From an uncultured Actinomycetes bacterium (GTDB lineage: Bacteria > Actinomycetota > Actinomycetes > S36-B12), in the NCBI GenBank assembly GCA_903832025.1, contig CAIKZY010000058.1, forward strand, positions 3,527 to 67,526: a stretch of DNA of 64,000 nucleotides, read 5' to 3'. Below the pieces are notes generated by a model. It made no database searches, was not told the origin of the DNA, and saw only the letters and a program-made list of their open reading frames with translations. Made by a program: the position numbers and the translations under genes. Below, one piece after another: positions 27,122 through 63,297 of this stretch; the first letter of the stretch is position 1; each line of letters starts with the position of its first letter.

Positions 27122-27126
27122 TCACC

Positions 27127-27152: not shown

Positions 27153-27191
27153 CAGCCCCACCGAGGTGTGCCGGCTGACATGCACTTGGCT

Positions 27192-29521: not shown

Positions 29522-29523
29522 TC

Positions 29524-41695: not shown

Positions 41696-42571
41696 CTAGC
41701 TCTTGGTCGCCTCGATGACTCCAGCGGAGCACAAGAACATGCCGCGCCAGTCGTCACTTCCCTCGCAGGCAATGCCGGCGGTCCGGAAATCCGATCCGAT
41801 GGACGCAGCCAGCATCGGCGGGGCGACGTGGTAGTTGTACCAATGGAATCGCACATCAGTGAAACCCCGGCTGCGAACCAGTGACTCCAGTTCGAAGGGA
41901 TTATGGAACTTTGCCAGGATCTCGTCGTACCCAGGTGCCTGCTGGGTGCCGGTTCGCTTCGGCGGCAGATCCATGGCCAGTCGCGGCCGCAGCTCGGCCT
42001 CCACGACGGTCCTGATTGACTCCGGCTGGCCGGCCAAGAGCTCACCCGTAATGAACTCCATCGTCAGTCGGTTGAATGAGTACAGGGACAGCATCGAGTT
42101 CCGGAATTGGAGGAACATCGTGCCGCCGCTGGGGATGAAGGCAGCCATGTTGTCGATGACCTGACCTTCATCTCGGACATGTGGCAATACGCCCAGGGCC
42201 ATCACCGCGTCGTATGGACCGGACGCGATCGCCTCCTGCAACGTTTCGCGATCCTGGATGTCTCCCCAGGTCAGGACACTTGGATCGAATCCCTTCGCCC
42301 GGAACTGCGCTCTGGCAACTTCCAGCATGCCCTCAGAGAAGTCACTGCCACCCACGCGAAGTCCGAGCTCGGCCATCGCGGCGATGGGGGAGCCGTCGCC
42401 GATGCCTAATTCATACACGCTGGTCAGGCCGAGTTCAGTGATGCGTTGCTTGATCTTCTTCAGCCTGAAGAAGTTCGCAGGATAGTCAGCTGACGTCAAG
42501 ATCTTGTCCGGATCGTACTGCTCGGAATATGTGGGGGCACTGGCGTTGTAGTGCTCAACGACTTCAGCCAT
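41696..42571 (-). CDS. Class I SAM-dependent methyltransferase
   Basis: Motif I, VYELGIGDGSPIAAMAELGLRVGGSDFSEGMLEVAR. ATG 42571 shares one base with the upstream TAA (TAATG). Confidence 0.8.
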   Translation of the reverse strand: MAEVVEHYNASAPTYSEQYDPDKILTSADYPANFFRLKKIKQRITELGLTSVYELGIGDGSPIAAMAELGLRVGGSDFSEGMLEVARAQFRAKGFDPSVLTWGDIQDRETLQEAIASGPYDAVMALGVLPHVRDEGQVIDNMAAFIPSGGTMFLQFRNSMLSLYSFNRLTMEFITGELLAGQPESIRTVVEAELRPRLAMDLPPKRTGTQQAPGYDEILAKFHNPFELESLVRSRGFTDVRFHWYNYHVAPPMLAASIGSDFRTAGIACEGSDDWRGMFLCSAGVIEATKS

Positions 42572-43902
42572 TAGCTTCTCTCTCCTGGGTGGTTACGTGT
42601 GCTCTGGTGCGCAGTGCGAATGAGCCCATGATCAATGAGTTCGTTCACCATTGGCGTCAAGGATTGCACGGTTGTGCCGAACAATTCGGCCATGTCCGTG
42701 ATCGCATGCTGGCCATCGGCGTACGCAAGGATGTTCGTTCGTAGCATCACATCCGCTGGCGTCGATTTCTCCATGAGCGTGTGATACAACCCCCGCCGTC
42801 CCAACTGGGGCTCCCCGAGCTGATTGCCGATGAGCACCATTTCCGACTCAAGAGTCTGGATGCATTCGCGAACAGCATCCAGGCCGCCTTGCAGGCCTGT
42901 CGGCGTGACGACATGCTCTAGGTCATCCAGGCTGGTGTGGTACTCGGGATAGTCCGCATAGCGCGAGCGCATGATCGAGACAAGCGGCAGGTCCACTCCC
43001 GGTGAACAGTATTGGCGCTCATCACTGCCACGCGCCAGGTATGAGTAATGGACCACGTTGTCCCTGCTGGCCAAGACGCGCTTGGCGATGCGGTCGATTC
43101 GACGATTCCCGTGACGAGAAGCCAGGTATGTGTACCTGCGATCATCGCCGATACAGGTGAGCTGGAACCCGGCAATCACGCGCTCACGAAGCTCTTCACG
43201 ATGATGTGCGATGTAGGTGACTGCACCGATTGTTTCGGGCACGAATGCAAAACGATAGGTGTAGTGCCGATGCTCAAGACGTTGCAGCCACTGAAACAGC
43301 CCCGTGGCGACCATTGGCCCGGACAGTTCATTGTTGGCCATCGACGGATGGCATATGTACGTGGAGATGAAGATTTCGTCCTGACTGTCTCCCGGGAGGA
43401 CGACATCTGCGTAGGTCAGACTTCCTGGAGCAAGGGTTGAGTCGATTCGTGCGTGATAGGTGCCGGGCTGCAGTTCGTCGCGGACACGCTGAGACAGGCA
43501 AAATCCCCAGCGTCGGTTGTAGTAACTGGTGACGTAGGGGATAGCCGTGGGCTGATCGGGAATCGAATGCAGATGGGACTGCAACTGGTCCAGCTCAAGG
43601 TGCTGATCCACCGGCTCGGAGTACCCGACCACGTGGAGATTGTTCAGTGCGAAGTCGGCGATGACTGAGCCATCCGGTGCCGTCAACGTGGCTGAGCGGA
43701 TACTCCACTCATCGGGGACGACCCAGTCCAGCACCGCCGTGCCTGAGGGAACCTCGTGGACGGTCAGTCCGGGGATTTCCTCTTGGAGCATGAGGCAGGT
43801 CCGGCGCACACCGTCCCCGGTGATACTTCGCGCAATGGGCCACAGTTGACGCGCGAGGGCATGCATCGCACGGCCCTCGGCGAGATCGTCGGCTGCAGCC
43901 AT
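42571..43902 (-). CDS. Aminopeptidase-like domain protein with C-terminal winged-helix (COG4310 / DUF4910-type)
   Basis: N-terminus LARQLWPIARSITGDGVRRTC...VHEVPSGTAVLDWVVPDEW. Central M28-like region (ICHPSMANNELSG). C-terminal ITDMAELFGTTVQSLTPMVNELIDHGLI. Recognised from memory of this family only. Confidence 0.55.
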   Translation of the reverse strand: MAAADDLAEGRAMHALARQLWPIARSITGDGVRRTCLMLQEEIPGLTVHEVPSGTAVLDWVVPDEWSIRSATLTAPDGSVIADFALNNLHVVGYSEPVDQHLELDQLQSHLHSIPDQPTAIPYVTSYYNRRWGFCLSQRVRDELQPGTYHARIDSTLAPGSLTYADVVLPGDSQDEIFISTYICHPSMANNELSGPMVATGLFQWLQRLEHRHYTYRFAFVPETIGAVTYIAHHREELRERVIAGFQLTCIGDDRRYTYLASRHGNRRIDRIAKRVLASRDNVVHYSYLARGSDERQYCSPGVDLPLVSIMRSRYADYPEYHTSLDDLEHVVTPTGLQGGLDAVRECIQTLESEMVLIGNQLGEPQLGRRGLYHTLMEKSTPADVMLRTNILAYADGQHAITDMAELFGTTVQSLTPMVNELIDHGLIRTAHQSTRNHPGERS

Positions 43903-46871: not shown

Positions 46872-47897
46872 GTGGGCGAGAGTCGCTTCGCGGAACCGTT
46901 CCTGCGCCGTCGTCGGTTCACCAGGACACTTCACGCAGCCCGGAACTTTGATGAGCGATTCACCCCTGGTGCCTCCGCTGACGGCCAGGAGTTTTTTGAC
47001 ATGCGTTCAGCCATGGATCTGCGCCCCACTGCAGGCAAGGAGATGTCCCGAAAGGCGCTGATCCACTCCCGCGGAGGCGTTCCGACCGAGGATCTTGCGC
47101 GCACGAGCACATTCGTGGCCTTCGACGAGATCGATGCCTGCGTGACCGGACTTGAGCAGGATGGGGTGTACGTCTTTCGTCAACTGATGCCATCGACGAT
47201 GGTTCACCCCATGCTGGAAAGTGCGCTGACAGTACCCGCGGCTCCGCGCGGACGTGATGCCGTGGCGTCACCGTTTCCTCGTTCGTCACCGACAGTCGGT
47301 CGATATGACATCGATGAGAACGACACGATGGCCAGTCCGCAGATGCAGGACTTTTGCAGCGATCCGGCGCTGGCACTGATCGCCGCGCGGTACCTGGGTC
47401 AGCCGGTTATCCAGGACCAGACGGCACTGTGGTGGACGACGACGCAGGGCGCCGCAGACGCTTCAATGAATGCGTGGCTGTTTCATCAGGACCGTGATCG
47501 GCTGTCATTCGTGAAGTTCTTCTGCTACCTCACCGACGTCGGACCGGAGAACGGCCCGCACACCATGGTTCGCGGCACGCACAAGCGTGTTCCCCGTGCC
47601 ATGTCGCGAGACGGCCGAAAGACCGATGAGGCAGTGCGAGCTGCGGGCCTGTGGGACCAGGTCACCGAGCTGACCGGCCCGGCCGGGACTGTCCTGGCAG
47701 TGGACACCGTCGGCCTGCACAAGGGACAACCGCCGATCAGTGGAGACCGCTGTGTCTTGCAGGTCGAATTCGCCACTTCGCTGTTCGGAGCGCACGTGGA
47801 CTATCCACGGTTTGACCCGACTGACCTGTCCCGTGAGCGCTTTGCTCAGGAACCGCAATTGCTTCAGCGCTGGTATCGCTCGTTCACCGACGAGTAA
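46872..47897 (+). CDS. Fe(II)/2-oxoglutarate dioxygenase, PhyH-like
   Basis: HxD in WLFHQDRD, a distal His in VDTVGLHKGQP, and the GPENGPHTMVRGTHK segment typical of the PhyH fold. Confidence 0.65.
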   Translation: MGESRFAEPFLRRRRFTRTLHAARNFDERFTPGASADGQEFFDMRSAMDLRPTAGKEMSRKALIHSRGGVPTEDLARTSTFVAFDEIDACVTGLEQDGVYVFRQLMPSTMVHPMLESALTVPAAPRGRDAVASPFPRSSPTVGRYDIDENDTMASPQMQDFCSDPALALIAARYLGQPVIQDQTALWWTTTQGAADASMNAWLFHQDRDRLSFVKFFCYLTDVGPENGPHTMVRGTHKRVPRAMSRDGRKTDEAVRAAGLWDQVTELTGPAGTVLAVDTVGLHKGQPPISGDRCVLQVEFATSLFGAHVDYPRFDPTDLSRERFAQEPQLLQRWYRSFTDE

Positions 47898-48414
47898 GCC
47901 ACCAGGTTCTGACCTTGCGCCAGGCATCGCTGGCTTTCTGAGCATTCTGGCTCGCCTCAGCGATGGGCTGTCCGTGCAACATCAACACATCATCGTCTTG
48001 TCGTTGGACATGCGCGTACGAAAAGCCACGTCGCTGCATCATCAATCCGTAAGGGATGGCTGCGGTGGGCTGCACCTGCGGCGGTGTATCGATCGCCGCT
48101 CCGATCTGGTCTTCGGTGGTGATGCGACGTGCGCAGCCGAGTTCGTCGTACGCCGACGGGCCCATCACCACAACAGGCCGGCCGAAGAATGCAGCCTCGA
48201 CACCCGCGGTAGATCCATAGGTGAAGACCACATCGGCTCGGTCCATCAACGCGTAGGAGTCCACCGAGGAGAACGGATCCAGATGCAGATCCGGGGCTGC
48301 CGCGGCCACCGCGGCCATCCAGTCCTGAAGGTCACCGGCCGGCTTCAGGCGCATGTGGGGATGCGTTCTGACCACAAGTCGCACGCCGGGTCGATCACGA
48401 CACTGCTTGGCTAA
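47884..48414 (-). CDS. C-terminal part of an HP-motif GT-B protein (capsule-synthesis KpsS/KpsC-like); same frame as 48451..49395 beyond an in-frame TAG
   Basis: VRLVVRTHPHM (HP motif) and VVFTYGSTAGVEAAFFGRPVVVMG. The frame is open from 48450 downward (QYLQSQEAALSALAKQCRDRPG-VRLVV). GTG 48414 is the first possible independent start. Confidence 0.55.
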   Translation of the reverse strand, partial: LAKQCRDRPGVRLVVRTHPHMRLKPAGDLQDWMAAVAAAAPDLHLDPFSSVDSYALMDRADVVFTYGSTAGVEAAFFGRPVVVMGPSAYDELGCARRITTEDQIGAAIDTPPQVQPTAAIPYGLMMQRRGFSYAHVQRQDDDVLMLHGQPIAEASQNAQKASDAWRKVRTWWLTRR

Positions 48415-48450
48415 GGCGCTCAGTGCCGCTTCCTGCGACTGGAGATACTG

Positions 48451-49395
48451 CTACCAGTCCAGGTCAAGCTCAGCGATCTCATCACCAGATGACGAGAAAA
48501 AGACAACCAGCGTCTGTGCCGGCGGAAGTTCGGTGACCAAACCCGGCTGCTGGATTCCCACGAAGCGAGCGTTGTGCTCGTCACTGTGCGACTTTCGGCT
48601 CGTGAACCAGCCGGAGCCGATGGCGTCGCGCTCGACCGGATCCCAGTGCTCGTACATGTCCATCATGCGATGCTGCAGGTCGGCCCAATCATGGGTCGTG
48701 GCGTCCGTCAGGTCGAAATCGGTCTCATACCCGCCGGTGTCGTAGTACAGGACGCGGATGCCCGCCTGCTCGGCCGCCGCAACGACAGCTTGATCATGGG
48801 TGAAGCGCCCGTTGTACACCACCACTGTGGTCAACCCACGTTCACGGATGAGCTCGCTGGCCTGGTCAAATGCCCAGGCGTAGCTCCGACACGCCGCACT
48901 CACCCACCGGCGCGGCCACCGATAGTCCTCGCGAATTGGCGTGTTGTCATCGGGGTGCACCTGAAGAACGGACCGGCCCATCGTGGACCCCCGATAGGTG
49001 AGCGCTCGAATGGCAGAACGGGTGAGCACCGCAGGCATTGCGGGCATGTGCTCGGCAGACCACGATCGAATTGGCGGCGAGACGAAGACCTGCCCGGGCA
49101 CCCCGATGGCTTCCATGGCGTGCTGAGCCTGTTCGTCTCGGGTCCGCGATCCCACCAGGTGGGCCAATGCCCTGCTCGAACGCCAGCCCACGTCCGGAAG
49201 GGGCGTCTTGTCGGCCCAGAAGCCAATGAACACCTCACAGCCCAGTGCGCGTGCTTCCAACGTCATCTCGATCACGGTGCCGACGGCGAACGACCAGTGA
49301 TTGAAGGTGATGATGCCAATGCGGGCTCGCTCGGCTTCTGTGGTCTTCGCCTGCAAGTGCGCGCGCAGCGAATCATGCTCTGCCCGCCTATCCAT
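48451..49395 (-). CDS. N-terminal part of an HP-motif GT-B protein (capsule-synthesis-like), ending at an in-frame TAG
   Basis: IGIITFNHWSF..., VVVYNGRFTHDQAVVAAAEQAGIRVLYYDTGG and LVVFFSSSGDEIAELDLDW, followed by TAG at 48451..48453. Both parts have their codon first bases at coordinates that are 0 mod 3. Confidence 0.55.
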   Translation of the reverse strand: MDRRAEHDSLRAHLQAKTTEAERARIGIITFNHWSFAVGTVIEMTLEARALGCEVFIGFWADKTPLPDVGWRSSRALAHLVGSRTRDEQAQHAMEAIGVPGQVFVSPPIRSWSAEHMPAMPAVLTRSAIRALTYRGSTMGRSVLQVHPDDNTPIREDYRWPRRWVSAACRSYAWAFDQASELIRERGLTTVVVYNGRFTHDQAVVAAAEQAGIRVLYYDTGGYETDFDLTDATTHDWADLQHRMMDMYEHWDPVERDAIGSGWFTSRKSHSDEHNARFVGIQQPGLVTELPPAQTLVVFFSSSGDEIAELDLDW

Positions 49396-50179
49396 GCTGA
49401 CTCTCGATCATCCTTCGGGCACGCCGCTGCAACTCCCAGGCCGCCATCCGAGTGGCTCCGCGCACCGGTCGCTCCCACATCCAGGCAACTCTGCGAGCAA
49501 ACGGCGTCAGCGCCCGACGACGCGCAACCTCAGATTCGCGCAAGGACGTGCTGCGATCTCCCACCGTCAGGGAGTCATCGTGCCAACGGAACGACGAGAC
49601 CACTTGGCCGATATCCACGAAGCTGCCGAGCGGCTGCAACTTCAGCAGGAGATCCAGGTCGAACGCGAATCGCATGGACTCGTCAACGCCGCCGACGCGC
49701 TCCCAGGCTGATCGACGCATCAGCATTCCCGGTTGCGGAATCAGGTCCGGCCCCCACTTCAGGATGCGAGGGGCCCACTTGCCAGCTCGACTGATCCACA
49801 ACTGACGGCCCTGGCTATCGATATATCGACAGGCACCGTACGTCAGCACTGCATCGGGAAGCCTGTCCAATACCGCAACGCTGCGGCGGACCGAATCCGG
49901 CTCCAGCAGGTCATCGTCACCGATCCAGTTCACGAATTCCGTACCGTCTCCCGCCGCAGCAACACCGGCATTGATGGCTGCCGGCAGATTGCCCGGATCA
50001 GGGATCAAGATCGCCCCGAACTGCTCACGAAGTCGCTGCACCTCCGGGGAATTCACCGGCGCAACGATGACGATGTCAATATCGACCTGTTGCGCGGCAA
50101 TCGAGTGCAGGCAGCGCTCCAGAAGGGCCGGGCGAGAGCCGAGAGTCGGAACAACGATCATGGTTCGGGCATGGGTCAT
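49388..50179 (-). CDS. Glycosyltransferase family 2
   Basis: MIVVPTLGSRPALLERCLHSIAAQQVDIDIVIVAP and GDDDLLEPD. ATG 50179 forms an ATGA overlap with the upstream stop. Confidence 0.8.
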   Translation of the reverse strand: MTHARTMIVVPTLGSRPALLERCLHSIAAQQVDIDIVIVAPVNSPEVQRLREQFGAILIPDPGNLPAAINAGVAAAGDGTEFVNWIGDDDLLEPDSVRRSVAVLDRLPDAVLTYGACRYIDSQGRQLWISRAGKWAPRILKWGPDLIPQPGMLMRRSAWERVGGVDESMRFAFDLDLLLKLQPLGSFVDIGQVVSSFRWHDDSLTVGDRSTSLRESEVARRRALTPFARRVAWMWERPVRGATRMAAWELQRRARRMIESQHG

Positions 50180-51312
50180 GTCAGCAGTGCCTGACTCAGC
50201 CATGCGTCAACGGCTACCTCATACCGCTCCGGTTCCCCGGCAACCCATTCGCGGTACTCAGCCTGGTCACGTCTGGATTGTTCGGGATCTGCCAGCACAG
50301 CCCTGATCACCGGCACCATCCGATCTGCCCAGTCTGCCTGGAACGGCACTCGGTACTGCATCGGAACCGGCGCATCGTCCCAGCAGTATGCCGATCCTCG
50401 AGCGACAAAAGCGACGGGGGTGCCCAGATGAGCCGCTTCACGAGGCAAGCGATCGCGACCATGCAGGAGTCCGAGCTCGACATACATGCTGGCTCGTGAG
50501 AGCAACTCGCACACCTGGGCGTAGCTCATTGACTGTATTGGTACGAAGTTGACATCCGGCATGCGCTCGCGAAGTGCCGGAACCAGCCATTGGCCTTTCG
50601 AGCCGTTGTAGGCCACGAGATTGCTGTCACGTGCGGTCGGTGGGACCGAGATCGTGCGAATCGGGTCGGTGATCAGGTGCGAATCGCGGCCGAAAGTCTG
50701 TCTGAGAAACCCCTGGCCGTAATACGACTGCGTGATGAAATTGGCATGCGAGTTATAGATCCTGCGCGCGTAGTGGATCGAGATATCTTCGGTGAGCACC
50801 GCGCGTATGCGGCGGGCACTTCCCACGCGGGCAATCGATTCACGCAGCGTGGCAAACGGCCCAGTTGACACCGGGCCAGGCAGTTCATAGTCCGCAGGGA
50901 CCGGTTCGTACGGCAGAGGAATGTCACCTCGGTAGTACTCCGGTGGGAATGTCCTGCAGTTCGGCTCACTGGGACGGAAGTAGCGGGCACGTGGGTCGGG
51001 GGAGAAATTGATACTCAGCCATGCGATCCACGTTCGCTCTTGAGGAATCTGACGGAGCTCTCGAAATGACTCGATGGGGCTGACCTCAGTCATGACGAAA
51101 TAGGCATCGGTGGCATCGGGGATGCGTTCAACCACGTCGAAGTCGTAGATGTCGTATTCGGGGTCATTGCGTCGGCCGCGGAAGTTATACATGGGGATCA
51201 GATGCGCTTCGATTCCGCGGCGACGAATCGCGTCCACCAGTTGTGTCAGCGCCTCCGGACCGGCGGTTCGGTCACCAAGCGGGGATGCCACGTAGAACTT
51301 CGGCGATCCCAT
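50176..51312 (-). CDS. Hypothetical protein, possible GT-B-fold transferase
   Basis: 378-aa soluble protein. C-terminal GRDRLPREAAHLGTPVAFVARGS resembles a GT-B donor-binding helix. GAGGAA lies 4 nt upstream of ATG 51312. Confidence 0.35.
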   Translation of the reverse strand: MGSPKFYVASPLGDRTAGPEALTQLVDAIRRRGIEAHLIPMYNFRGRRNDPEYDIYDFDVVERIPDATDAYFVMTEVSPIESFRELRQIPQERTWIAWLSINFSPDPRARYFRPSEPNCRTFPPEYYRGDIPLPYEPVPADYELPGPVSTGPFATLRESIARVGSARRIRAVLTEDISIHYARRIYNSHANFITQSYYGQGFLRQTFGRDSHLITDPIRTISVPPTARDSNLVAYNGSKGQWLVPALRERMPDVNFVPIQSMSYAQVCELLSRASMYVELGLLHGRDRLPREAAHLGTPVAFVARGSAYCWDDAPVPMQYRVPFQADWADRMVPVIRAVLADPEQSRRDQAEYREWVAGEPERYEVAVDAWLSQALLT

Positions 51313-51351
51313 GGGTTTCCTCAATGTGCGCACGGATAGGCGGGCACAACT

Positions 51352-53133
51352 TTACGGGAGAAAGCCCTGCTGGAGGTCGGTGCCGCGCATGCGCAGTGTC
51401 TTGGAAGGTTGCGGTGTGCACAGCGGGAAATGAAGCCAGCATTGATCTGTTCCCACAGGAACCGTGACCACGACCCCAGATGCCAATCGCTGAGCGCTGA
51501 CTGGCACCTGCTGCACCGGGCTCACCGCGTACGGAATCGACACGCCAAGTGTCCAGCGCTGGGCCTGGGTACGGGTGGATAGGTGGCTGCGGGCGATGAA
51601 TGAGATCAGGACGACCAGCACGATTGCTGCCATTGCCGGAATCTCGGCGCTTCGTGGCCAGGCGATGCGCCGTCTTGGGTCCGCGCTGAGCACCCACAGG
51701 CACCAGCCGATTGGCACTGCAAACAGCATGAACAACGGTCCCCAGGCAAAGCGGAAGGACGGCGGCGTGAACAGCCACCAGAAGGCCACCGTGACCACGC
51801 ACGGGATGCTGGCGAGGACCACACCGCGCAGGTTCCTTGTGTCCTGGACCGACCGCGCCTCGAGTGCTGTCCGTGCGTTGCCGGACCGGTCACGGCAGAC
51901 CAGGAGAAGGCAGATCATCACCAAGGCCAGGACCAGGATTTCGAAGGTTTCCCACTGATGCGGTAGCCGAGAGATCCACGCCGGTATCCATGCCCATCCA
52001 TGGGCTGACTGCCACATGTTGGCGGGATCTCGAGCAAAGCCCAGCGTTACCTCGCGCAGCGAAGTCGGGTTCGGTGCCAGCCAGGGGACGTTGAATGCAT
52101 GAATGGACAGTGGGTATTGCAGCCAGCCGCTGAGTCGGTAATCACGCATGCCCGAGACTGCGACAGCAAGCAGGCCGGCCCCGGCAACTCCGATGGCCGC
52201 CACACGTGGCCTGTGCTGCACCCCGCGTCGCGTTTGGATGAAGAAGATCGCAAGACACACGGCGATCACGCAGGCGACAAAGATTGCCATCGTGGGCCTG
52301 ATCATCCACGTGGTGATGGCGACAATGCACGCGATCGACGCATCGGCGGTCCAATTCCGTGCAGCTGCGATCGCATCCGACAGATAGGAGATCGCAACCA
52401 CCGTCAGCACGAGCACTGCTGAGTCCTGCGACGGGCTGGTAACCCAGAAGTCGCTCAGCGCAATCATCGGGACCCAGGCTGCAGTGAGGCCTACCAGCAT
52501 GATGTACGTGCCCACCGACCAACGTCGTCGGAAGATGCGTAAGCAGAAGTCAGCGGCAACAAGGCCGAGCAGCAGGCCGTTGAACAGCCGATAGCCCTGG
52601 TCTGACCAGGGCCCGTTGTCCAAGAGTGCCGCCAAGGGAAACTGCATCGATCCGTACCCAAGCGGAGCGTAGAGATTGGCAAGCCCGGGGATCGCGGCAA
52701 AGTTCGCTGAATACTTCACTGCCCCCAGGTGATACAAACCGGTGTCATACCCGGTGACCGGGCCAAGCGCGGCCAAGGCCAGGTACACCTGCGCCAAACC
52801 CAGGGACACCAGGGCCACCACCGCAGGTCGAGCCTCGGCACCCGCTGCGCGCGATCGCCGCCGAAGCGACGGATAGCCCAACACCCCACCAGCACACGCC
52901 ACGATCACCAGGGCCCACGCGGCAACGGGCGAGCGCATGGGCACAAGAACACTCAGCACGCCGACCATCAGTGCGGCAATCAGCGCGCCCCACCACAGAG
53001 CCCGGCGAACAAGTTGCTGCCGATCGGCCTCCGGTGCCGTCCACGACGCCACGGGAAGTCCCAGGGCAACCACCACGCAAGCCGCAAATGCCCACGTGAC
53101 CAGCACCAGGGCGATTCCCGTGAGCGTTATCAT
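51352..53133 (-). CDS. 593-aa polytopic membrane protein (polymerase or GT-C-like) with a Cys-containing C-terminal domain
   Basis: At least 14 helices. Loop motif TGYDTGLYHLGAVKY. C-terminal soluble segment ending VPVGTDQCWLHFPLCTPQPSKTLRMRGTDLQQGFLP. Confidence 0.6.
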   Translation of the reverse strand: MITLTGIALVLVTWAFAACVVVALGLPVASWTAPEADRQQLVRRALWWGALIAALMVGVLSVLVPMRSPVAAWALVIVACAGGVLGYPSLRRRSRAAGAEARPAVVALVSLGLAQVYLALAALGPVTGYDTGLYHLGAVKYSANFAAIPGLANLYAPLGYGSMQFPLAALLDNGPWSDQGYRLFNGLLLGLVAADFCLRIFRRRWSVGTYIMLVGLTAAWVPMIALSDFWVTSPSQDSAVLVLTVVAISYLSDAIAAARNWTADASIACIVAITTWMIRPTMAIFVACVIAVCLAIFFIQTRRGVQHRPRVAAIGVAGAGLLAVAVSGMRDYRLSGWLQYPLSIHAFNVPWLAPNPTSLREVTLGFARDPANMWQSAHGWAWIPAWISRLPHQWETFEILVLALVMICLLLVCRDRSGNARTALEARSVQDTRNLRGVVLASIPCVVTVAFWWLFTPPSFRFAWGPLFMLFAVPIGWCLWVLSADPRRRIAWPRSAEIPAMAAIVLVVLISFIARSHLSTRTQAQRWTLGVSIPYAVSPVQQVPVSAQRLASGVVVTVPVGTDQCWLHFPLCTPQPSKTLRMRGTDLQQGFLP

Positions 53134-53301
53134 TGCGGCTCCAGACTAGATCAGCGGCGCAGATCCCGGATGGCAACCAACACGTGTCCGCACAGGTTCC
53201 GCCGGACGACTGGACCGCGCATCGGGGAACTCGCCATGGACGCGGTGCTGATCACCAAGAGCCAGGAAGGCTCCCGATGGCGCGCCGGCGATCGCGCGCG
53301 G

Positions 53302-54249
53302 CTAGGAGATGGTTTGGCGGAAGTACTCGATAGTTCGAGCAAGACCTTCGGCAAGCGGCACCGAGGGCTGCCAGCCCAAGGTTGACATCGCACGAGTGAT
53401 GTCCGGTTGCCGGCGTACCGGGTCATCTTGCGGCAGCGGAAGATACTCGATGCCCGCGCTGGTCCCGGTCTGCTCGATGACCAGGTCCGCGAGATCGGAG
53501 ATCGTGAATTCACCCGGATTGCCCAGGTTGATCGGACCGGTGACCTCCGGCTGGGAACCCATCATCTTCAGCAGGCCCTCAATGAGGTCGTCGATGTAGC
53601 AGAACGACCGCGTCTGCTGGCCTTGACCGTAGACCGTCAGCGGCAGTTCCTTCAGCGCGCTGACAACGAAGTTGGACACCACCCGTCCGTCATGCGGATG
53701 CATCCTGGGACCGTAGGTGTTGAACAATCGAACCACCTTGATCTGGAGGCCATGCTGTCGGTGATAGTCGAAGAACAGAGTTTCGGCGGCCCGCTTGCCC
53801 TCGTCGTAGCACGCCCTGGGCCCGATCGGGTTCACGTTTCCCCAATAGTCCTCAGACTGCGGATGCACCAATGGATCCCCGTACACCTCAGAGGTAGACG
53901 TCAACAGGATCTTGGCACCGGTCCGCTTGGCCAGGCCCAGCATGTTGATCGATCCGTGCACGGCAGTCTTGGTGGTTTGCACCGGGTCACGCTGATAATG
54001 AATCGGGCTCGCTGGGCAGGCAAGGTGATAGATCTCGTCAACCTCGACGTACAGGGGGAACGTGACATCGTGGCGAATGGCCTCAAAGCGCGGATTGTCA
54101 AGAAGGTGCGCGATGTTGTCCTTGGTGGACGAGTAATAATTGTCGACGCACAACACGTGGAAACCGTCATTGAGTAGCCGCTCGCACAGGTGGGAACCAA
54201 TAAACCCCACACCGCCGGTCACCAGGACTCTGCCTCGAGCGATGGTCAT
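53302..54249 (-). CDS. UDP-glucuronate decarboxylase (UDP-xylose synthase)
   Basis: [59 protein letters not shown] and [12 protein letters not shown] 54249 forms an ATGA overlap with the upstream stop. Confidence 0.85.
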
Positions 54250-55190
54250 GGCGCTGTCCTCCGATTCGTCACATGTGCCCGGAAGCGATCCAGGCCTCCA
54301 AGTACCGTTGCACGATAGTGGTGGCGCAATTCCCACTGGTCGGCACGTCGGTTTCGGTGCACGGGCACGATCGGCAATTCACCGACCAAGGCACCTTGCT
54401 GCGGAAGTCCGGAATCTCCCTGCTGCGTATGCGTGGCATCGTCACCAAACCCGACATTGGAGACCATGTTGACATTGGGAACGACCGCCAGCTGATTGCT
54501 GCGCATCGCGGCAAAGCTCCACTGCCAGTCCCAAGTGTCGACCTCACCGCGCGCGGTGAATTCCAGATTTGCCGCCCAATACAAGATTGCCGACGGTGAG
54601 TAGTTGCACGCACTGACAAAGCGAGCCGGGCTGATCGTGCGCCACCAGCCGCGCGCATCGAGCTGATGCAACTGCCACGAGCGTCGCCAGCAGGCCCAGC
54701 CCCAGACGTGCATGTACTGCGAGAAGCGATAGCGATCATCACTTGGCCACAGCGAAGTATCGGCAACCGTGTTGCATCCGGTGATTGCGAAGATTCGCTC
54801 ATCATCTTGGTAGCGATCAAGCATCGTGGTGCAGAAGGGGAAGAAACTGGGATCGGGGCGAATATCGTCTTCCAGGATGATGCCACGCTCAACGTTGTCG
54901 AAGAACCACGTGATCGCAGTGGTGACGCCAAGGCCGCAGCCCAGATTGGAATCCTGGAAATTGGTATGAACCTCATCGGTCCAATCAATGGATGCCACCA
55001 GCTCCCGACATGCCTGGACACGGTCTGCCTCACCCGCCCGATCTGGACGCGCGCCATCAACGGCGACATAGACGCAGGCGGGCCGCACGTCACGAAGGAG
55101 CGAGATGAGTCCTTCCAGCAGATCAGGACGATTGAACGCGATGAGCAGGACCGGTTCATTCACCGTCAGGACGCTCCTGTGCTTGCGCAT
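54246..55190 (-). CDS. GT-A-fold glycosyltransferase (GNT-I/HlpA-like)
   Basis: [36 protein letters not shown] and [15 protein letters not shown]. The start is ATG 55190 or GTG 55163. Confidence 0.5.
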
Positions 55191-55524
55191 TCAGGTCGGT
55201 AATCCTCCGGTCCAGGAGCGCGATTTCCTCGGCGAGGCGCCGAATGCGCGCCTCGTGCCTGCTCAACTCGTAACTCAACTGGACGCTGACCATCACCAGC
55301 ATCACGATGGTGACGAAGAACAGCAGGTTCACCGGCTGGGAGACTCCCAGCCGGAAACTGATCCATTCCAGGACCTGAGGAACCAGCGCGAAGAACAACG
55401 CCGCACCGGCAAACAGCAGCCACAGCACCGCGTACTTTTCCTTCAGGACGCCACGGCGCAGCAGATCCAGGATGAAGATGAACGTGATGATCGCGGTAAT
55501 CGCAGCCAGGATGTTGGGAGTCAT
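55156..55524 (-). CDS. Small membrane protein, DUF2304 family (Rv3632-like)
   Basis: MTPNILAAITAIITFIFILDLLRRGVLKEKYAVLWLL..., three helices plus a C-terminal amphipathic tail. ATG 55524 shares a base with the upstream GT2 stop. Confidence 0.75.
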   Translation of the reverse strand: MTPNILAAITAIITFIFILDLLRRGVLKEKYAVLWLLFAGAALFFALVPQVLEWISFRLGVSQPVNLLFFVTIVMLVMVSVQLSYELSRHEARIRRLAEEIALLDRRITDLNAQAQERPDGE

Positions 55525-56249
55525 CAGGCACCGTCCCCCCTGCTCTGATTGGGTCGCTTGAGGACCGTGGCCACCAGCGCCAGGCCAGCCCGACCCAGGT
55601 ACAGGGCCGACCACAGGGCATTCTTGCTTGGCCGGCCGATCGCCCGGTAGTACATCGTGACCGGGGCCTCGTGAATGGTCAGACCGTGCCGGATCGCAAT
55701 CGACAATGAGCCGACCGTGTCACCGAGATACTCCGCGGGATAGTTCACGGCAAACAGCTCGATCGCCCTTGGTCCAGCGGAACGAAAGCCCGATGTGGGA
55801 TCGCTGATCGTGGCATGGTTCATCCGACTCAGGGCATGGGACAGCAGCACCATCGCCCAGCGACGAGGGCCACCGACGAAGTACATCGAATCTGGATGGA
55901 ATCTGGTGCCCACCACGATGTCGGCGGTTGCCAGGCCCTGTAGGAGCTTGTCCAGATCCGCCGGATCGTGCTGGCCATCGGCGTCGACCTGGACCAGGCC
56001 CTGGTACCCCTCCCGCTGGGCATACAGGAAGGCCGTGCGCATCGCACCACCGACGCCGACATTGAACGGCAGGGACACCACGGTTGCGCCGGCTTGCGCG
56101 GCGACCAGGGCCGTGCGGTCGGTTGAGCCGTCGTTGACCACCAGGATCCCTGCGGCCGGCAGATGCTGGCGAACCTTGCCAATCACCTCGCCAATGGCGC
56201 CGGCCTCGTTCCACGCGGGGATCGCGATGAGCACCCGATCGGAATCCAC
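55524..56249 (-). CDS. Polyprenyl-phosphate sugar synthase-like GT2 (PpgS/DPM1 subfamily)
   Basis: VLIAIPAWNEAGAIGEVI, ILVVNDGSTDRT, VDADGQHDP, and the C-terminal GLTIHEAPVTMYYRAIGRPSK. Confidence 0.8.
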   Translation of the reverse strand: MDSDRVLIAIPAWNEAGAIGEVIGKVRQHLPAAGILVVNDGSTDRTALVAAQAGATVVSLPFNVGVGGAMRTAFLYAQREGYQGLVQVDADGQHDPADLDKLLQGLATADIVVGTRFHPDSMYFVGGPRRWAMVLLSHALSRMNHATISDPTSGFRSAGPRAIELFAVNYPAEYLGDTVGSLSIAIRHGLTIHEAPVTMYYRAIGRPSKNALWSALYLGRAGLALVATVLKRPNQSRGDGA

Positions 56250-56303
56250 GCCCCCACGGTAGTCCAGCAGGGCGCTCGATTCCGAAGCCGCGGCCTGAAA
56301 TGG

Positions 56304-57430
56304 CTAGGAGATCCACTGTCCTTGGGTGTAGCGAATGGAAACCAGAATCAGGATGGGTAGGCAGCAGATCACGTAGGCCCAGCGCAGCCAGCGCCGGTGC
56401 GTCATCCACACCCCCAGCACCATCCAGATGGGGAAGAGCACCACGAGCGTGCGGGGAACCGAGTGGTACATGGTGCTGGTTCCCAGCGAGATCATGGTGA
56501 CCAGCAGGTAGATCGACTCGGGCCACCACCGGCGGCGAACCAGCACGATCGTGAAGATGGCGATGACCGCCATCGCCATGATCTCGGTGATCATGCGCGA
56601 GGAGGGCTGACCATTGGGGGCAAAGGTGTAAATCAGGTGGTACGTGTTGAGCAAGGACGTCACCGGATCAACAAGGTTCCGATGCCAGAAGTCTCGCTCG
56701 GCGTGCGACCATGCCAGCCAATCGCCGGTGATCGCCCGGAGATAGGCCGAGTACCCCACGACAGCGATGAATGGGATGAGCAAGGCCCAGGCACGGCTCC
56801 ACATTCGCGGCCGGGTGAGCGCGAACATGACGACCAGCGCGATTGCCAGGAACAGGCCTTCGGTCGAACGACGGCAGCCCCGCCAGCGAGCAATCCGGCC
56901 CACACCCAATCCTGGCGACGGGCAAAGATCCATGCCCACACGGCCAGGGCGCAGAACAGAGCCTCGGTGTACGGAGCTGTCACGAACAGCGCTGTCGGCG
57001 CGACAAAGAAGGCCATGGCCCCGTACGGTCCCGTTCCGCCCACCTCCTGGGTCAGGCGTGAGATGCCGAATCCGGCGATCAGGCTCGCGACCAGGGACAC
57101 GATCAATCCGGTTCCGGTCGCTGACAGCCCCAAGCCCATGCCGACCTTCATCAGCGCGGGTAGGCCGGGGAAGAACGCCACGTTGTAGTGGAAGTCTTGG
57201 AACGCACTTACATATGGACCCACGTATCCGTATGTGGCGATCGACTCGTACCAGGCGGTATCCCATTGGCGCCAGATGCCGACGTATGCGCGAAGTCCGC
57301 CGTGCGCAGAGATGGCAGTCCAGCTCCCCACCGCTGCTGCACCGAGCACGATCACGCGAGTGATCAGCCATATACCGACGATCTCCCACCGTTGCCGCGT
57401 GCGTTGCGCGGCGTGAACTTCCGAGCCCAT
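56304..57430 (-). pseudogene. PIG-V/GT-C-like mannosyltransferase-family membrane protein with a 1-nt frame offset
   Basis: The upstream half (frame of ORF 56660..57481) carries WDTAWYESIATYGY...YNVAFFPGLPAL...AGLLAGGAAVV. The downstream half (frame of ORF 56304..57602) continues STEGLFLAIALVVMF... to the stop at 56304. The junction lies at about 56862..56885. The span is 1127 nt (3n+2). ATG 57430 shares a base with the upstream TGA. Confidence 0.7.
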
Positions 57431-58581
57431 CACGGCCGAGCCGCTGCCGCCGCCCCCACTTGGGCCGCAAAGTTCTGCCATGTCGGGATATCGGCGCTAT
57501 CGATCGTGGCAGCCAGTTCCGCCACCGCCAACGGATCGGCGAGCTGGGTGAACACCGCGGACAATCCATCGGAGGAGATCTCATCCACGCTGACTGCGCC
57601 ATGGCCTCGCATCAGCTCACCGGCGGGCTGAATCCCCTCGAACACCACCGGAGTGTGCAGTTGCAGCGCCTCCAGCACCGGAATGCCGTATCCCTCGATT
57701 CCCACGGAGAGGAAGATATCGGCGCGATGCAGCTGGTCGTAAACCACCGCATCGTCTGCATGGCGGATCCATTCGATTGGCAGGCCCTGGGCAATTGCCT
57801 CCTCGATGCCGTCATTGATACCGGCGTCTGAGGCGGACGGCTTGCCAACGAACACCAACTCCGCGTTCGCGCCCTCGGCAATGGCCTGCGCAAACCCTGC
57901 CACGATTTCCAGGGGCTGCTTCCTGGCTTCCATAGTGCCCACGCGCAGGAATCGAATCGGCATGCCAACCCCGCGGGCGATCGCCGGGCGAGCTTGGATG
58001 TGATCACCGCCGGGGTGCGCAATGACCGTGGACAGGTGCCGGTCCCTGCGGAGCCTGGTCATGACCTCCTGCGCGGCGTAGTCACTGATGCAGATCACGG
58101 TGTCGACGCATGCAAGGAGACGGAAATACTCGCTAACCCATGCCGATGTGCCCGGAGCGAAGCGATAGTTGGCCGGCTGGGTCATCGGCAGTGCGTCATA
58201 TCCGATCATTGATGTCGGCATGCACCGGGCGAATGTGTTCAAGCGCTGCAGCACGCTGGGAAGGTACGTCACCTCCGGCAGCAGCCAACGATCATGAATC
58301 GCCAACAGGTCCCCGAAGCCAACCGTCGGTGCCGGCAGGCCTATGAGGTATTCGCTCACCAGGTCTCGTATGTCGGTATCAGCAGGTCGAGCTGCGAATG
58401 GCAGCGCCAGCAGGCCATCGGCCATCTGTGGGGTCAGGAGCAAGAAGCGATCACCGCGGGGCACGATGAATGTGGCCGGGATGTCGTCCGGCCAGTTGCG
58501 TGCGAGCTGCCACAGCACCCGCTGAATGCCTGATCCATATGGATCGGTCACGAATTGCTCGATATCGATGCCGACGTTCAT
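57430..58581 (-). CDS. Glycosyltransferase family 4 (GT-B)
   Basis: MNVGIDIEQFVTDPYGSGIQRV and the C-terminal SVGIEGYGIPVLEALQLHTPVVFEG. ATGA overlap with the upstream gene. Confidence 0.8.
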   Translation of the reverse strand: MNVGIDIEQFVTDPYGSGIQRVLWQLARNWPDDIPATFIVPRGDRFLLLTPQMADGLLALPFAARPADTDIRDLVSEYLIGLPAPTVGFGDLLAIHDRWLLPEVTYLPSVLQRLNTFARCMPTSMIGYDALPMTQPANYRFAPGTSAWVSEYFRLLACVDTVICISDYAAQEVMTRLRRDRHLSTVIAHPGGDHIQARPAIARGVGMPIRFLRVGTMEARKQPLEIVAGFAQAIAEGANAELVFVGKPSASDAGINDGIEEAIAQGLPIEWIRHADDAVVYDQLHRADIFLSVGIEGYGIPVLEALQLHTPVVFEGIQPAGELMRGHGAVSVDEISSDGLSAVFTQLADPLAVAELAATIDSADIPTWQNFAAQVGAAAAARP

Positions 58582-62252: not shown

Positions 62253-62316
62253 CCCACAAGGGTAGGGGGCATCACCGCTCACCCGGCACGGACACGTGGC
62301 GGGACAAGGCAATGGC

Positions 62317-63297
62317 CTAGAAGTCCGTCCACAAGGCGTCGGGGTCATCCAGTAACCGGAGGTCTTGCTGCACCATGCGGCTTGCCATCGCGTCGAAATC
62401 AACCGTGTGACGCCATCCGAGATCCAACATCGCGGCCCGACTGTCGCCCACCAGCAGATTGGTGTCGGCCTGGCGAGCGTTTTCACTGGTGCTGACCACC
62501 AGATCCGCCCAATCCACAATCCCGGCAGCCTCAAACGCCTTGCTGATGAAGTACGACAGCCGATGGGAGATACCGGTAGCCAGCAGGTAGTCCCGTGGTT
62601 CATCAGCAGCCATCATCAACGTGGCTGCGCGAACGTAGTCCGGCGCCCATCCCCAGTCGCGGGCCACCTCGATATCGCCGAGGGTGACGTGCTCCTGCTG
62701 GCCCGCCGCGATCCGCGCCACCGCCATGGTGATCTTGCGCGTCACGAAATTCGATCCGCGCAGTGGCGACTCGTGGTTGTAGAAGATCCCGGAGGCCGCG
62801 AACAGCCCGTCATGCTCACGAGCCTGCCGCACCAGTTCCATCGCTTCAGCCTTGGAGTGCGCGTACGGGCTCTTCGGTGCAGTTTCCATGCTCTCGGTCT
62901 GGGGTGAGCGATCCACGCCTTCGAAGACCAACGCCGATGACGCCTGGAACAGGCGCGCTGTCGGCGCTGCGGCCTTCATCGCGGCGATGATGGTGCTCAC
63001 CGCACCGACATTGATTGCTCGCACCTCATCAACGTGATCCCACGAGTCCCCCGGTGCGGTGAAACCGCCAAGGTTGTAGATGAACTCCGGGCAATTGGCA
63101 CCGATGACATCGAACAGGGTTCGGTGGTCAGCCAGGTCGCATGGCACCACCGCGACACGTGGGGCATACCTGGTCAACGCGGTCGTGTCGGTACCCGGCT
63201 TGACCAGGCCGATGACGTCCAACCCTTGCTCAGTGAGCATTCGGGACAGGATCAAGCCATCCTGTCCCGCTGAACCGGTGATGAGGGCTGAAGGCAT
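62317..63297 (-). CDS. GDP-4-keto-6-deoxy-sugar reductase, Gmd-paralog type (Rmd/DmhB-like)
   Basis: ALITGSAGQDGLILSRML, SPYAHSKAEAMEL (YxxxK) and FYNHESPLRGSNFVTRKITMAVARIAAG. It lies immediately downstream of gmd. Confidence 0.65.
   Translation of the reverse strand: MPSALITGSAGQDGLILSRMLTEQGLDVIGLVKPGTDTTALTRYAPRVAVVPCDLADHRTLFDVIGANCPEFIYNLGGFTAPGDSWDHVDEVRAINVGAVSTIIAAMKAAAPTARLFQASSALVFEGVDRSPQTESMETAPKSPYAHSKAEAMELVRQAREHDGLFAASGIFYNHESPLRGSNFVTRKITMAVARIAAGQQEHVTLGDIEVARDWGWAPDYVRAATLMMAADEPRDYLLATGISHRLSYFISKAFEAAGIVDWADLVVSTSENARQADTNLLVGDSRAAMLDLGWRHTVDFDAMASRMVQQDLRLLDDPDALWTDF

What the first reader, a model, noticed from the sequence alone, without database searches (positions are those of the whole stretch)
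47884..49395. In-frame TAG splits a ~500-aa HP-motif GT-B gene (capsule-synthesis / ulosonic-acid-transferase-like)
ORFs 48451..49395 and 47884..48384 are in the same frame (codon first bases at coordinates that are 0 mod 3). Translating through gives ...LVVFFSSSGDEIAELDLDW-TAG-QYLQSQEAALSALAKQCRDRPGVRLVVRTHPHM.... The single stop therefore falls between the two Rossmann-like halves of what looks like one protein.

The downstream half carries an H-P motif (RTHP). Motifs of this kind occur in KpsC/KpsS-type Kdo transferases and in bacterial sialyltransferase-like GT-B enzymes. That would fit a transferase for the NeuB-family product.

Possible explanations are a nonsense-mutated pseudogene, a sequencing error, or a genuinely split two-subunit enzyme restarting at GTG 48414. 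TAG is used as a normal stop elsewhere in the window (5960..5962 and 9753..9755).
Basis: seen in the sequence. Interest (0 to 1): 0.55.

Follow-up and report, generated by a model that had tools for sequence, protein, structure and literature searches.

The report
Nonsense-mutated surface-glycan glycosyltransferase allele
A single C-to-A change has put a stop codon in the middle of a conserved 503-residue sugar-transferase gene in one strain of an uncultured freshwater actinobacterium, so this is a recent strain-specific gene knockout rather than a new gene arrangement.

Summary
On the minus strand, ORF 49395..48451 ends at TAG, and the same frame runs on to TGA at 47886..47884. Read through, it gives a 503-aa protein.

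More than 500 homologues are unsplit proteins of about 500 aa. All 33 orthologues whose 3' end lies within the fetched DNA, from other species, are single intact ORFs. Near-identical strains (99.6-99.8 % DNA identity) carry TCG (Ser315) where the window has TAG.

The TAG haplotype occurs, base for base, in other metagenome assemblies, so a sequencing error is unlikely.

The protein belongs to an uncharacterised GT-B family, mostly from freshwater Actinomycetota. It passes the Pfam Capsule_synth threshold and has an invariant RTHPHM "HP" motif. Its closest solved relatives are the beta-Kdo transferases WbbB and KpsC, but only weakly.

The stop lies inside the C-terminal Rossmann domain, not between the two halves. 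It separates the invariant FSSSxDE motif from the HP motif, and no ribosome-binding site or promoter supports a restart.

The same strain also has a 1-bp frameshift in a GT-C-like gene of the same operon. Another strain has a 53-bp deletion in the adjacent GT2 gene.

Verdict: an ordinary, recent loss-of-function allele in a variable surface-glycan operon. Interest is low.

The parts
48451..49395 (-). 5' fragment of the disrupted gene. It runs 314 codons from ATG 49395 to the premature TAG and encodes the whole N-terminal domain plus strand beta-1 of the C-terminal domain.
   Evidence: Its product equals P0122, which is recorded on 5 contigs. No Pfam hit is on record for this fragment alone.
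48451..48453 (-). Premature stop codon TAG at codon 315. It derives from TCG (Ser) by a C-to-A change on the coding strand at window position 48452.
   Evidence: One search shows four differences from L001/L002 within the gene: three synonymous and this one. Searches show that all nine intact-allele loci have G on the plus strand at 48452. Residue 315 varies in the family (S/D/A/E/K).
47884..48450 (-). Untranslated 3' remainder of the gene: codons 316-503 plus TGA. It encodes the rest of the C-terminal Rossmann domain and the C-terminal helix.
   Evidence: The Pfam Capsule_synth match (residues 320-424) lies entirely here.
48478..48498 (-). Codons 300-306, the invariant F-S-S-S-x-D-E motif at the end of strand beta-1 of the C-terminal domain. 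It is the candidate counterpart of the QXXXD nucleophile motif of Kdo transferases and lies upstream of the stop.
   Evidence: Invariant columns F300, S301, S302, S303, D305 and E306; strand 295-300. The QXXXD motif is described in PMC10148158. The correspondence is inferred from spacing and was not shown by superposition.
48352..48369 (-). Codons 343-348, the invariant R-T-H-P-H-M (HP) motif, downstream of the stop.
   Evidence: It aligns to WbbB 'VRAHPGS' in a sub-threshold stretch of the PDB profile search.
48382..48384 (-). First in-frame GTG after the stop (Val338) and the only plausible GTG restart. No Shine-Dalgarno-like sequence lies upstream.
   Evidence: Gene callers instead start a 156-aa ORF at ATG 48354, which is Met348, after the His-Pro.
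49388..50203 (-). Upstream GT2 glycosyltransferase gene. Its stop overlaps the target's start by 8 nt. In strain L010 it carries a 53-bp deletion (window 49678..49730).
56304..57430 (-). GT-C-like (PIG-V mannosyltransferase family) membrane-protein gene of the same operon. In the window it is frameshifted by a missing C between 56858 and 56859.
   Evidence: the L001 version is 375 aa and collinear with the L022 orthologue over residues 14-375, whereas the window version aligns in two frames. PF04188, 23.5 bits against a cut-off of 22.4; a second assembly of the window haplotype shows only a 199-aa call there.
46872..47897 (+). Convergent PhyH-family (2-oxoglutarate/Fe(II) oxygenase-like) gene. 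Its 3' end overlaps the target's 3' end by 14 nt. It is the neighbour most often found immediately next to the orthologue.
   Evidence: A homologue lies within the fetched flanks in 20 of 37 related loci, in most of them directly downstream and convergent.
47884..62603 (-). Co-directional gene string, a putative operon, of which the target is the last gene. In order it holds a 1341-aa ORF (1224-aa gene call; methyltransferase + GT4), GT4, GT-C (frameshifted), GT2, DUF2304, a 305-aa protein, an epimerase, DUF8201, a 378-aa protein, GT2, and the target.
   Evidence: Because the target is the terminal gene, the stop cannot have polar effects on other genes.

Best explanation
The window carries a recently arisen loss-of-function allele, in effect a young pseudogene, of a conserved single-chain glycosyltransferase of about 503 aa.

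Shown:
- A C-to-A transversion turned Ser315 (TCG) into TAG in one clonal lineage of an uncultured freshwater actinobacterium. Sister lineages 99.6-99.8 % identical keep the intact gene.
- The 314-aa product retains the N-terminal domain and the invariant FSSSxDE motif.
- It lacks the invariant RTHPHM (HP) motif, the YGST motif and the rest of the C-terminal Rossmann domain, the half that binds the nucleotide-sugar in GT-B enzymes.

Inferred:
- The truncated product should be catalytically dead.
- The intact enzyme most likely transfers a sugar from a nucleotide-activated donor onto a cell-surface glycan made by this operon. The donor may be a CMP-activated ulosonic acid, given the distant kinship to WbbB/KpsC/KpsS-type enzymes and the nonulosonic-acid pathway elsewhere in the window.
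- The lineage therefore probably displays an altered or truncated surface glycan.
- This fits the second lesion in the same operon, the 1-bp frameshift in the GT-C-like gene. It also fits the usual variability of such islands under phage or grazer pressure.
For: - Single-base origin: within the gene the window differs from L001/L002 at 4 of 1512 positions, three synonymous plus TCG>TAG. The same holds against all nine intact-allele loci.
- Intact relatives: P0001 and P0121 (503 aa) occur on 3 and 25 contigs. One search returned 519 homologues; the 120 listed are almost all single proteins of about 500 aa. All 33 orthologues in other species whose 3' end lies within the fetched DNA are open through the site.
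- Real, not an error: the truncated product P0122 is recorded on 5 contigs. L003 and L004, from different assemblies and assemblers, are 100 % identical to the window over about 4 kb including the TAG.
- TAG is an ordinary stop here, ending 14 of 49 ORFs taken as genes.
- The lesion is disabling: invariant R343, T344, H345, P346, H347, M348, Y393, G394, S395, T396 and E400 lie downstream of it. The stop falls between strand 295-300 and helix 321-333 of the C-terminal Rossmann domain.
- No restart signal: no Shine-Dalgarno-like sequence precedes GTG 48384, GTG 48375 or ATG 48354, and no promoter-like site was found.
- Second lesion in the same strain and operon. An independent 53-bp deletion in the neighbouring GT2 gene occurs in another strain.
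Against: - No read-level data were available, so allele frequencies within samples are unknown.
- How independent the TAG-bearing assemblies are is also unknown. Several may come from one study or lake.
- Downstream of the stop there are no further disabling changes: two synonymous and no non-synonymous differences. This is expected for a very young pseudogene. It is equally compatible with continued use through low-level read-through at a position that tolerates many residues.
- The enzyme's donor and acceptor are unknown, so the phenotypic consequence is inferred.
Confidence: 0.8

Rival explanations
1. Leaky knock-down rather than knock-out. Occasional read-through or near-cognate suppression of TAG-C inserts some amino acid at the tolerant position 315. 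This would yield a small amount of full-length active enzyme, so the allele lowers the glycan modification rather than abolishing it.
For: Residue 315 is the variable residue of a low-confidence linker: S/D/A/E/K in homologues, with pLDDT about 66 for residues 301-310. The 3' remainder shows only synonymous differences.
Against: TAG is a routine stop in this genome, ending 14 of 49 ORFs. No tRNA of any kind is in the window. No recoding signal was seen. Basal read-through in bacteria is normally well below 1 % (general knowledge). The lack of extra mutations has no statistical weight over 564 nt at 0.2 % divergence.
Confidence: 0.09
2. Sequencing, assembly or consensus artefact: the organism really has TCG.
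For: It is a single-base difference, and the source is a metagenome assembly, where the consensus can mix strains.
Against: The identical TAG haplotype, with its three linked synonymous SNPs, appears in at least four other assemblies made with different assemblers from several ENA analyses (ERZ1426846, ERZ1426622, ERZ18668134, ERZ27313605). Two of them were aligned and are 100 % identical over about 4 kb. The change is not in a homopolymer.
Confidence: 0.04
3. A functional split enzyme: the 314-aa fragment and a restarted C-terminal fragment (from GTG 48384 or ATG 48354) associate non-covalently, as in Alg13/Alg14-type split GT-B enzymes.
For: Both ORFs remain open, and gene callers predict a 156-aa downstream ORF. 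Split GT-B enzymes exist in nature (general knowledge).
Against: No orthologue is split, in 33 species-level loci and the 120 listed homologues. The break is inside the C-terminal Rossmann domain, after beta-1, not at the domain linker. A restart at 48384 would lose helix alpha-1, and a restart at 48354 would lose the His-Pro itself. No Shine-Dalgarno or promoter-like signal is present. The allele is only one mutation away from intact sister strains.
Confidence: 0.03

Closest known systems
Retaining beta-Kdo transferases WbbB (GT99) and KpsC/KpsS (GT107), with the related Pse transferase KpsS1 (GT118) and KrkA (GT140)
   Same: - GT-B-derived fold. KpsC structures give the highest target-normalised TM-scores (0.44-0.52) in the Foldseek list.
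- WbbB is the best solved sequence match to the C-domain profile (E = 0.0095). Its 'VRAHPGS' lines up with 'VRTHPHM', and its 'FTINSSVGLEA' with 'FTYGSTSGVEA'.
- Passes Pfam PF05159 Capsule_synth, the family that holds KpsC and KpsS.
- An invariant acidic motif lies 40 residues before the HP His. In WbbB the corresponding spacing is about 33 residues (recalled from memory), and it appears similar in KpsC (peptide in PMC10148158).
   Different: - Sequence similarity is marginal: WbbB E = 0.01-0.12 and KpsC E = 1.1.
- The nucleophile motif reads S-S-S-x-D-E, not Q-x-x-x-D.
- The N-terminal domain is large, about 290 residues with its own invariant motifs (YNGRFTHD, YYDTGG, TTHDW). In the Kdo transferases it is described as reduced (PMC12887879).
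- The hosts are Actinomycetota, which are not known to make Kdo (general knowledge).
- The donor sugar is untested.
Strain-specific nonsense or frameshift alleles of surface-glycan glycosyltransferases (phage-receptor loss; variable O-antigen and capsule loci)
   Same: A point-mutation knockout of the terminal glycosyltransferase of a glycan operon. It segregates among strains more than 99.6 % identical. It is accompanied by other independent lesions in the same operon.
   Different: No phenotype, phage or selection data exist here. There is no simple-sequence repeat at the site, so this is not classical reversible phase variation.
Naturally split GT-B enzymes (e.g. Alg13/Alg14)
   Same: Two consecutive ORFs that together cover a GT-B fold.
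   Different: Here the split is not conserved, is not at the domain boundary and lacks a translation start signal.

Membership tests
Pfam PF05159 Capsule_synth | HMM score at or above the curated gathering threshold (20 bits) | tested here: met
   The read-through product scores 25.7 bits, E = 9.9e-6, over residues 320-424 and profile positions 169-274 of 310. Most homologues carry a precomputed PF05159 hit. Coverage is partial, limited to the C-terminal half. Neither fragment alone has a hit on record.
Retaining ulosonic-acid transferases (GT99/GT107/GT118) | HP motif (His that protonates the CMP phosphate) | tested here: met
   R343-T-H345-P346-H-M348 is invariant in 29 of 29 sequences. It aligns to WbbB ...VRAHPGS... 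in a sub-threshold stretch.
Retaining ulosonic-acid transferases (GT99/GT107/GT118) | Invariant QXXXD motif carrying the Asp nucleophile | tested here: inconclusive
   At the topologically equivalent place (end of beta-1 of the C-domain, 40 residues before the HP His) the family has invariant F-S-S-S-x-D305-E306. The Asp is present, but Gln is replaced by Ser. The motif definition is taken from PMC10148158. No structural superposition could be run.
Retaining ulosonic-acid transferases (GT99/GT107/GT118) | [quoted passage not shown] | tested here: inconclusive
   The AlphaFold2 model (pLDDT 92) is GT-B-like. Foldseek gives KpsC TM 0.44-0.52 (target-normalised), while UDP-GlcNAc 2-epimerases have the better E-values. 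The N-terminal part is about 290 residues, so it is not reduced.
Retaining ulosonic-acid transferases (GT99/GT107/GT118) | Significant sequence similarity to a characterised member | tested here: inconclusive
   WbbB: E = 0.12 with the full profile and 0.0095 with the C-domain profile. KpsC: E = 1.1.
Retaining ulosonic-acid transferases (GT99/GT107/GT118) | Uses a CMP-activated ulosonic acid donor | not testable with these tools
   The window encodes NeuB (4895..5962), a CMP-transferase (25146..25922), and PseB- and PseC-like enzymes. These lie 20-42 kb away and are rarely within 10 kb of orthologues.
NCBIfam NF046086 (BFO_1060 glycosyltransferase) / TIGR04396 (surface carbohydrate biosynthesis protein) | Score at or above the curated cut-off | tested here: not met
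   21.7 bits against 200, and 17.9 bits against 125.
Nonsense-mutated allele (young pseudogene) | Sense codon at the site in near-identical strains and in orthologues, with one base change explaining the stop | tested here: met
   TCG/Ser in nine loci at 99.6-99.8 % identity. D/A/E/K/S in orthologues. 33 of 33 orthologues with their 3' end in the fetched DNA are open.
Nonsense-mutated allele (young pseudogene) | The stop is reproducible in separate assemblies | tested here: met
   P0122 is recorded on 5 contigs; L003 and L004 are 100 % identical to the window. Read-level support was not available.
Conserved split (two-gene) glycosyltransferase | Orthologues split at the same place with a conserved restart and ribosome-binding site | tested here: not met
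   No orthologue is split. No Shine-Dalgarno-like sequence precedes the in-frame starts, and no promoter-like site was found.
Recoded TAG (suppression or non-standard code) | TAG avoided as a terminator, with in-frame TAGs recurring in conserved genes | tested here: not met
   TAG ends 14 of 49 window ORFs, including NeuB, whose Pfam SAF domain runs to residue 354 of 355. No tRNA gene is in the window.

The most novel reading that the evidence does not exclude
The TAG may be one of several parallel, independently arisen knockouts of the same surface-glycan operon within a single natural population more than 99.6 % identical. The three lesions seen are the nonsense in the GT-B gene and the 1-bp frameshift in the GT-C gene in the window lineage, and the 53-bp deletion in the GT2 gene in another lineage. 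If so, there is recurrent selection, for example by phages that use this glycan as receptor, for losing a glycan decoration. That decoration would be made by an uncharacterised family widespread in Actinomycetota and related to ulosonic-acid transferases.
Probability: 0.3. Interest if true: 0.45.

Novelty: new member of a known kind. Interest (0 to 1): 0.2.

Why it matters
- For annotation: the two ORFs should be merged and flagged as one disrupted gene. Neither fragment has a Pfam hit on record, so pipelines will call both hypothetical.
- For biology: it is a small, concrete example of strain-level inactivation in the hypervariable cell-surface glycan island of an abundant, uncultured freshwater actinobacterium.
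- It also points to a large uncharacterised GT-B family. The family has about 4,000 cluster representatives at E <= 1e-3 and invariant FSSSxDE and RTHPHM motifs. It would be a reasonable candidate for a Gram-positive nonulosonic-acid or other CMP-sugar transferase.
- It does not reveal a new mechanism.

Tried and rejected
- I scanned JGI metagenome contigs for either allele with 40-nt and 27-nt patterns spanning the codon. There were no matches, so no extra allele counts came from that collection.
- I looked up the frameshifted GT-C product by exact sequence. It is not on record with that start. I used the neighbouring 383-aa gene instead.
- A profile search of PDB sequences with the full-length alignment gave spurious ankyrin-repeat hits on residues 50-104 and only E = 0.12 for WbbB. 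The C-domain-only profile improved WbbB to E = 0.0095 but did not reach KpsC significance.
- The promoter and terminator scan of 47500..49700 found no promoter-like site and one terminator-like hit at chance level.
- The tRNA scan of the window found none.
- I considered scaffold artefacts for the lesions in L006, L009 and L010. The ABC-transporter 'splits' in those loci are runs of N and were discarded. The 53-bp deletion in the L010 GT2 gene is not next to any N and was kept.
- The species-level source of the window could not be named. The best species-representative genome match is only 69 % identical.
Full report
**1. The observation**

- On the minus strand, an ORF opens at ATG 49395 and ends at TAG 48453..48451 after 314 codons. 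The same frame then stays open for another 188 codons to TGA 47886..47884.
- TAG is an ordinary terminator in this DNA. It ends NeuB (5960..5962), the ORF ending at 9755, and in total 14 of the 49 ORFs I took as genes.
- One coordinate is wrong. The coding strand has no GTG at 48414: that triplet reads TTA, and 48414 is the end of an unrelated plus-strand ORF.
- The in-frame restart candidates are GTG 48384 (Val338), GTG 48375 and ATG 48354 (Met348).

**2. One gene, interrupted by one base change**

- A search of about 5.8 billion proteins with the read-through sequence returned 519 homologues. Nearly all of the 120 listed are single proteins of 496-517 aa covering 97-100 % of the query.
- The top hit, P0001, is identical to the read-through product over all 503 residues, with Ser at position 315.
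- The cluster also contains P0121 (503 aa, one further substitution, 25 contigs) and P0122. P0122 is the 314-aa truncated product and is recorded on 5 contigs.
- Within the gene the window differs from the intact-allele contigs L001 and L002 at 4 of 1512 positions. Three are synonymous third-position changes; the fourth is TCG to TAG at nucleotide 944.
- All nine intact-allele loci (99.6-99.84 % identical to the window) share these differences. The window therefore represents a distinct clonal lineage in which the stop is derived.
- Across species, I fetched 37 related loci from species-representative genomes.
  - In the 33 loci that hold the gene through to its 3' end, it is one uninterrupted ORF of about 500 codons.
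  - Four others are cut by a contig end.
  - One long-read MAG (L048) shows multiple frame changes.
It is not fulfilled.

**3. Not a sequencing error**

- L003 (ERZ18668134) and L004 (ERZ27313605, a different assembler) are 100 % identical to the window over 3,997 and 3,843 bases, including the TAG.
- Two more assemblies (ERZ1426846, ERZ1426622) carry a gene with exactly the truncated product.
- The site is not in a homopolymer.
- I could not see reads, and some of these assemblies may come from one study. Independence is therefore good but not absolute.
- Two scans of JGI metagenome contigs for either allele found nothing.

**4. What the gene encodes**

- The read-through product passes the Pfam Capsule_synth (PF05159) threshold: 25.7 bits against 20, covering residues 320-424 only.
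- Its NCBIfam hits fall far below their cut-offs.
- An alignment of 29 homologues shows a strongly conserved family (mean column identity 68 %). Its invariant motifs are YNGRFTHD (residues 194-201), YYDTGG (217-222), TTHDW (233-237), FSSSxDE (300-306), RTHPHM (343-348) and YGST (393-396). Residue 315 itself varies: S, D, A, E or K.
- AlphaFold2 gives a confident model with mean pLDDT 92.1 and pTM 0.88.
  - A large N-terminal alpha/beta part is followed by a regular beta-alpha-beta Rossmann domain.
  - That domain starts at strand 295-300, with helix 321-333, strand 338-343 and so on.
- Foldseek against the PDB returns GT-B proteins. UDP-GlcNAc 2-epimerases have the best E-values. KpsC beta-Kdo transferase structures have the highest target-normalised TM-scores, 0.44-0.52.
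- By sequence profile, the best solved relative of the C-terminal domain is the GT99 beta-Kdo transferase WbbB (E = 0.0095). The region around YGST gives the scoring match, and the HP motif lines up with WbbB's 'VRAHPGS' in a sub-threshold stretch. KpsC scores only E = 1.1.
- In these enzymes an Asp of a QXXXD motif is the covalent nucleophile, and a conserved His protonates the CMP leaving group. [quoted passage not shown]
- In this family the equivalent position carries S-S-S-x-D-E rather than Q-x-x-x-D. The N-terminal domain is large rather than reduced.
- I therefore file it as a distant, uncharacterised relative within the Capsule_synth/HP-motif GT-B superfamily, not as a member of GT99, GT107 or GT118.
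- An exhaustive profile search counts 4,002 cluster representatives at E <= 1e-3 and 359 at E <= 1e-30, mostly 470-530 aa.
- The named genomes are almost all freshwater Actinomycetota MAGs (Nanopelagicales, Actinomycetales), with two Rubricoccaceae/Rubrivirga MAGs.

**5. Where the stop falls and what it does**

- The stop is not between the two halves. It lies in the loop between beta-1 and alpha-1 of the C-terminal Rossmann domain.
- The 314-aa product keeps the N-terminal domain and the FSSSxDE motif. It loses the HP motif, YGST, Glu400 and everything else that forms the nucleotide-binding half.
- A restart at GTG 48384 would lack beta-1 and alpha-1. A restart at ATG 48354, the start gene callers chose for a 156-aa ORF, would lack the His-Pro itself.
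- None of the candidates has a Shine-Dalgarno-like sequence upstream. No promoter-like site was found.
- I conclude the allele is non-functional. This step is inferred, not shown.
- Because the gene is the last of a co-directional string running 62603 to 47884, and is convergent with a PhyH-family gene, the stop has no polar consequences.

**6. Context**

- The whole 64-kb window is a surface-glycan island. It holds many GT2 and GT4 genes, epimerases, a Wzy-like protein and UDP-galactopyranose mutase.
- It also holds a nonulosonic-acid pathway:
  - NeuB at 4895..5962;
  - a cytidylyltransferase at 25146..25922;
  - a PseB-like dehydratase at 26021..27121;
  - a DegT aminotransferase at 27192..28319;
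  - a GNAT at 29524..30381.
- The neighbours that recur with the target across species are different.
  - A GT4 or GT2 lies directly upstream, and the convergent PhyH-family gene directly downstream.
  - Close by lie a DUF4910/HTH protein, a methyltransferase and a DUF6492-like protein.
  - Upstream lies a GT2 + DUF2304 + epimerase + DUF8201 block.
- NeuB or cytidylyltransferase homologues fall within 10 kb of the orthologue in only 4 of 37 loci.
- The idea that this enzyme transfers the NeuB-pathway product is therefore plausible but unsupported.

**7. More lesions in the same operon**

- Compared with L001, the window lacks one C between 56858 and 56859. The site lies inside a 375-aa integral-membrane gene that matches PIG-V-type (GT-C) mannosyltransferases (PF04188, 23.5 bits against 22.4).
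- The L001 version is collinear with an orthologue in L022 over residues 14-375. The window version aligns in two different frames.
- A second assembly of the window haplotype (ERZ1426846) shows only a 199-aa call at that place. A contig from ERZ1426829, the sample that also carries the intact Ser315 allele, has a 392-aa call there.
- Separately, L010 carries the intact Ser315 allele but has a clean 53-bp deletion (window 49678..49730) in the GT2 gene immediately upstream. That gene is split into two short calls.
- Apparent splits of the ABC-transporter gene in L006, L009 and L010 coincide with runs of N, and I dismissed them.
- Three independent lesions in one operon among strains more than 99.6 % identical suggest that loss of this glycan step is tolerated or even favoured. 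With so few genomes and no reads this remains a hypothesis.

**8. Verdict**

- The finding is real and correctly recognised as one interrupted gene of the Capsule_synth/HP-motif GT-B kind.
- It is best explained as a young, strain-specific nonsense allele (confidence about 0.8).
- Low-level read-through at a tolerant position (about 0.09), an assembly artefact (about 0.04) and a functional split enzyme (about 0.03) are the remaining alternatives.
- Nothing here is mechanistically new, so interest is low (0.2).
- The more interesting by-products are the uncharacterised, highly conserved enzyme family and the hint of recurrent operon inactivation.

Noticed in passing
window 56304..57430 (minus strand); lesion between 56858 and 56859: A 1-bp deletion (L001 has CGAACGGCC, the window has CGAAGGCC) frameshifts a 375-aa PIG-V/GT-C-like membrane glycosyltransferase gene in the same operon as the TAG gene. 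A second assembly of the window haplotype shows only a 199-aa call there.
   Followed up: yes
L010:340-400 (= window 49678..49730, GT2 gene 49388..50203): A strain with the intact Ser315 allele carries a 53-bp deletion in the GT2 gene immediately upstream, splitting it into 132-aa and 95-aa calls. No N runs are nearby. This is a third independent lesion in the operon.
   Followed up: partly
window 46872..47897 (+): A PhyH-family (2-oxoglutarate/Fe(II) oxygenase-like) gene converges on the target, with a 14-nt overlap of the 3' ends. A homologue lies in the fetched flanks of 20 of 37 related loci, mostly directly downstream of the orthologue. Its role in glycan synthesis is unknown.
   Followed up: partly
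window about 50,400-50,520: All four TAG-haplotype contigs from other assemblies end within about 150 bp of window position 50,500. This suggests strain-level heterogeneity or an assembly-graph branch just upstream of the GT2 gene.
   Followed up: no
window 4895..5962, 25146..30381: A nonulosonic-acid pathway (NeuB/SAF, CMP-cytidylyltransferase, PseB-like dehydratase, DegT aminotransferase, GNAT) is scattered through the island. It lies 20-42 kb from the Capsule_synth-like gene, and no other candidate transferase for it was identified.
   Followed up: partly
window 55524..56249 and adjacent DUF2304 ORF (L001:3162-4240): A very highly conserved GT2 (75-91 % identity across species) is paired with a small DUF2304 membrane protein and lies next to the GT-C-like gene. 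This resembles polyprenyl-phosphate-sugar synthase plus extracytoplasmic GT-C systems that decorate actinobacterial cell-wall polymers; the resemblance is recalled from memory and was not tested.
   Followed up: no
L048:10001-11498: The orthologue in a long-read MAG (MFD09779.bin.1.334) aligns in four pieces across three frames. This is either long-read indel error or another decayed copy.
   Followed up: no
window 42571..43902 (-): A DUF4910/DUF2172 aminopeptidase-like protein with a C-terminal winged-helix domain is a recurrent neighbour of the target family (14 of 37 loci). Its function is unknown.
   Followed up: no
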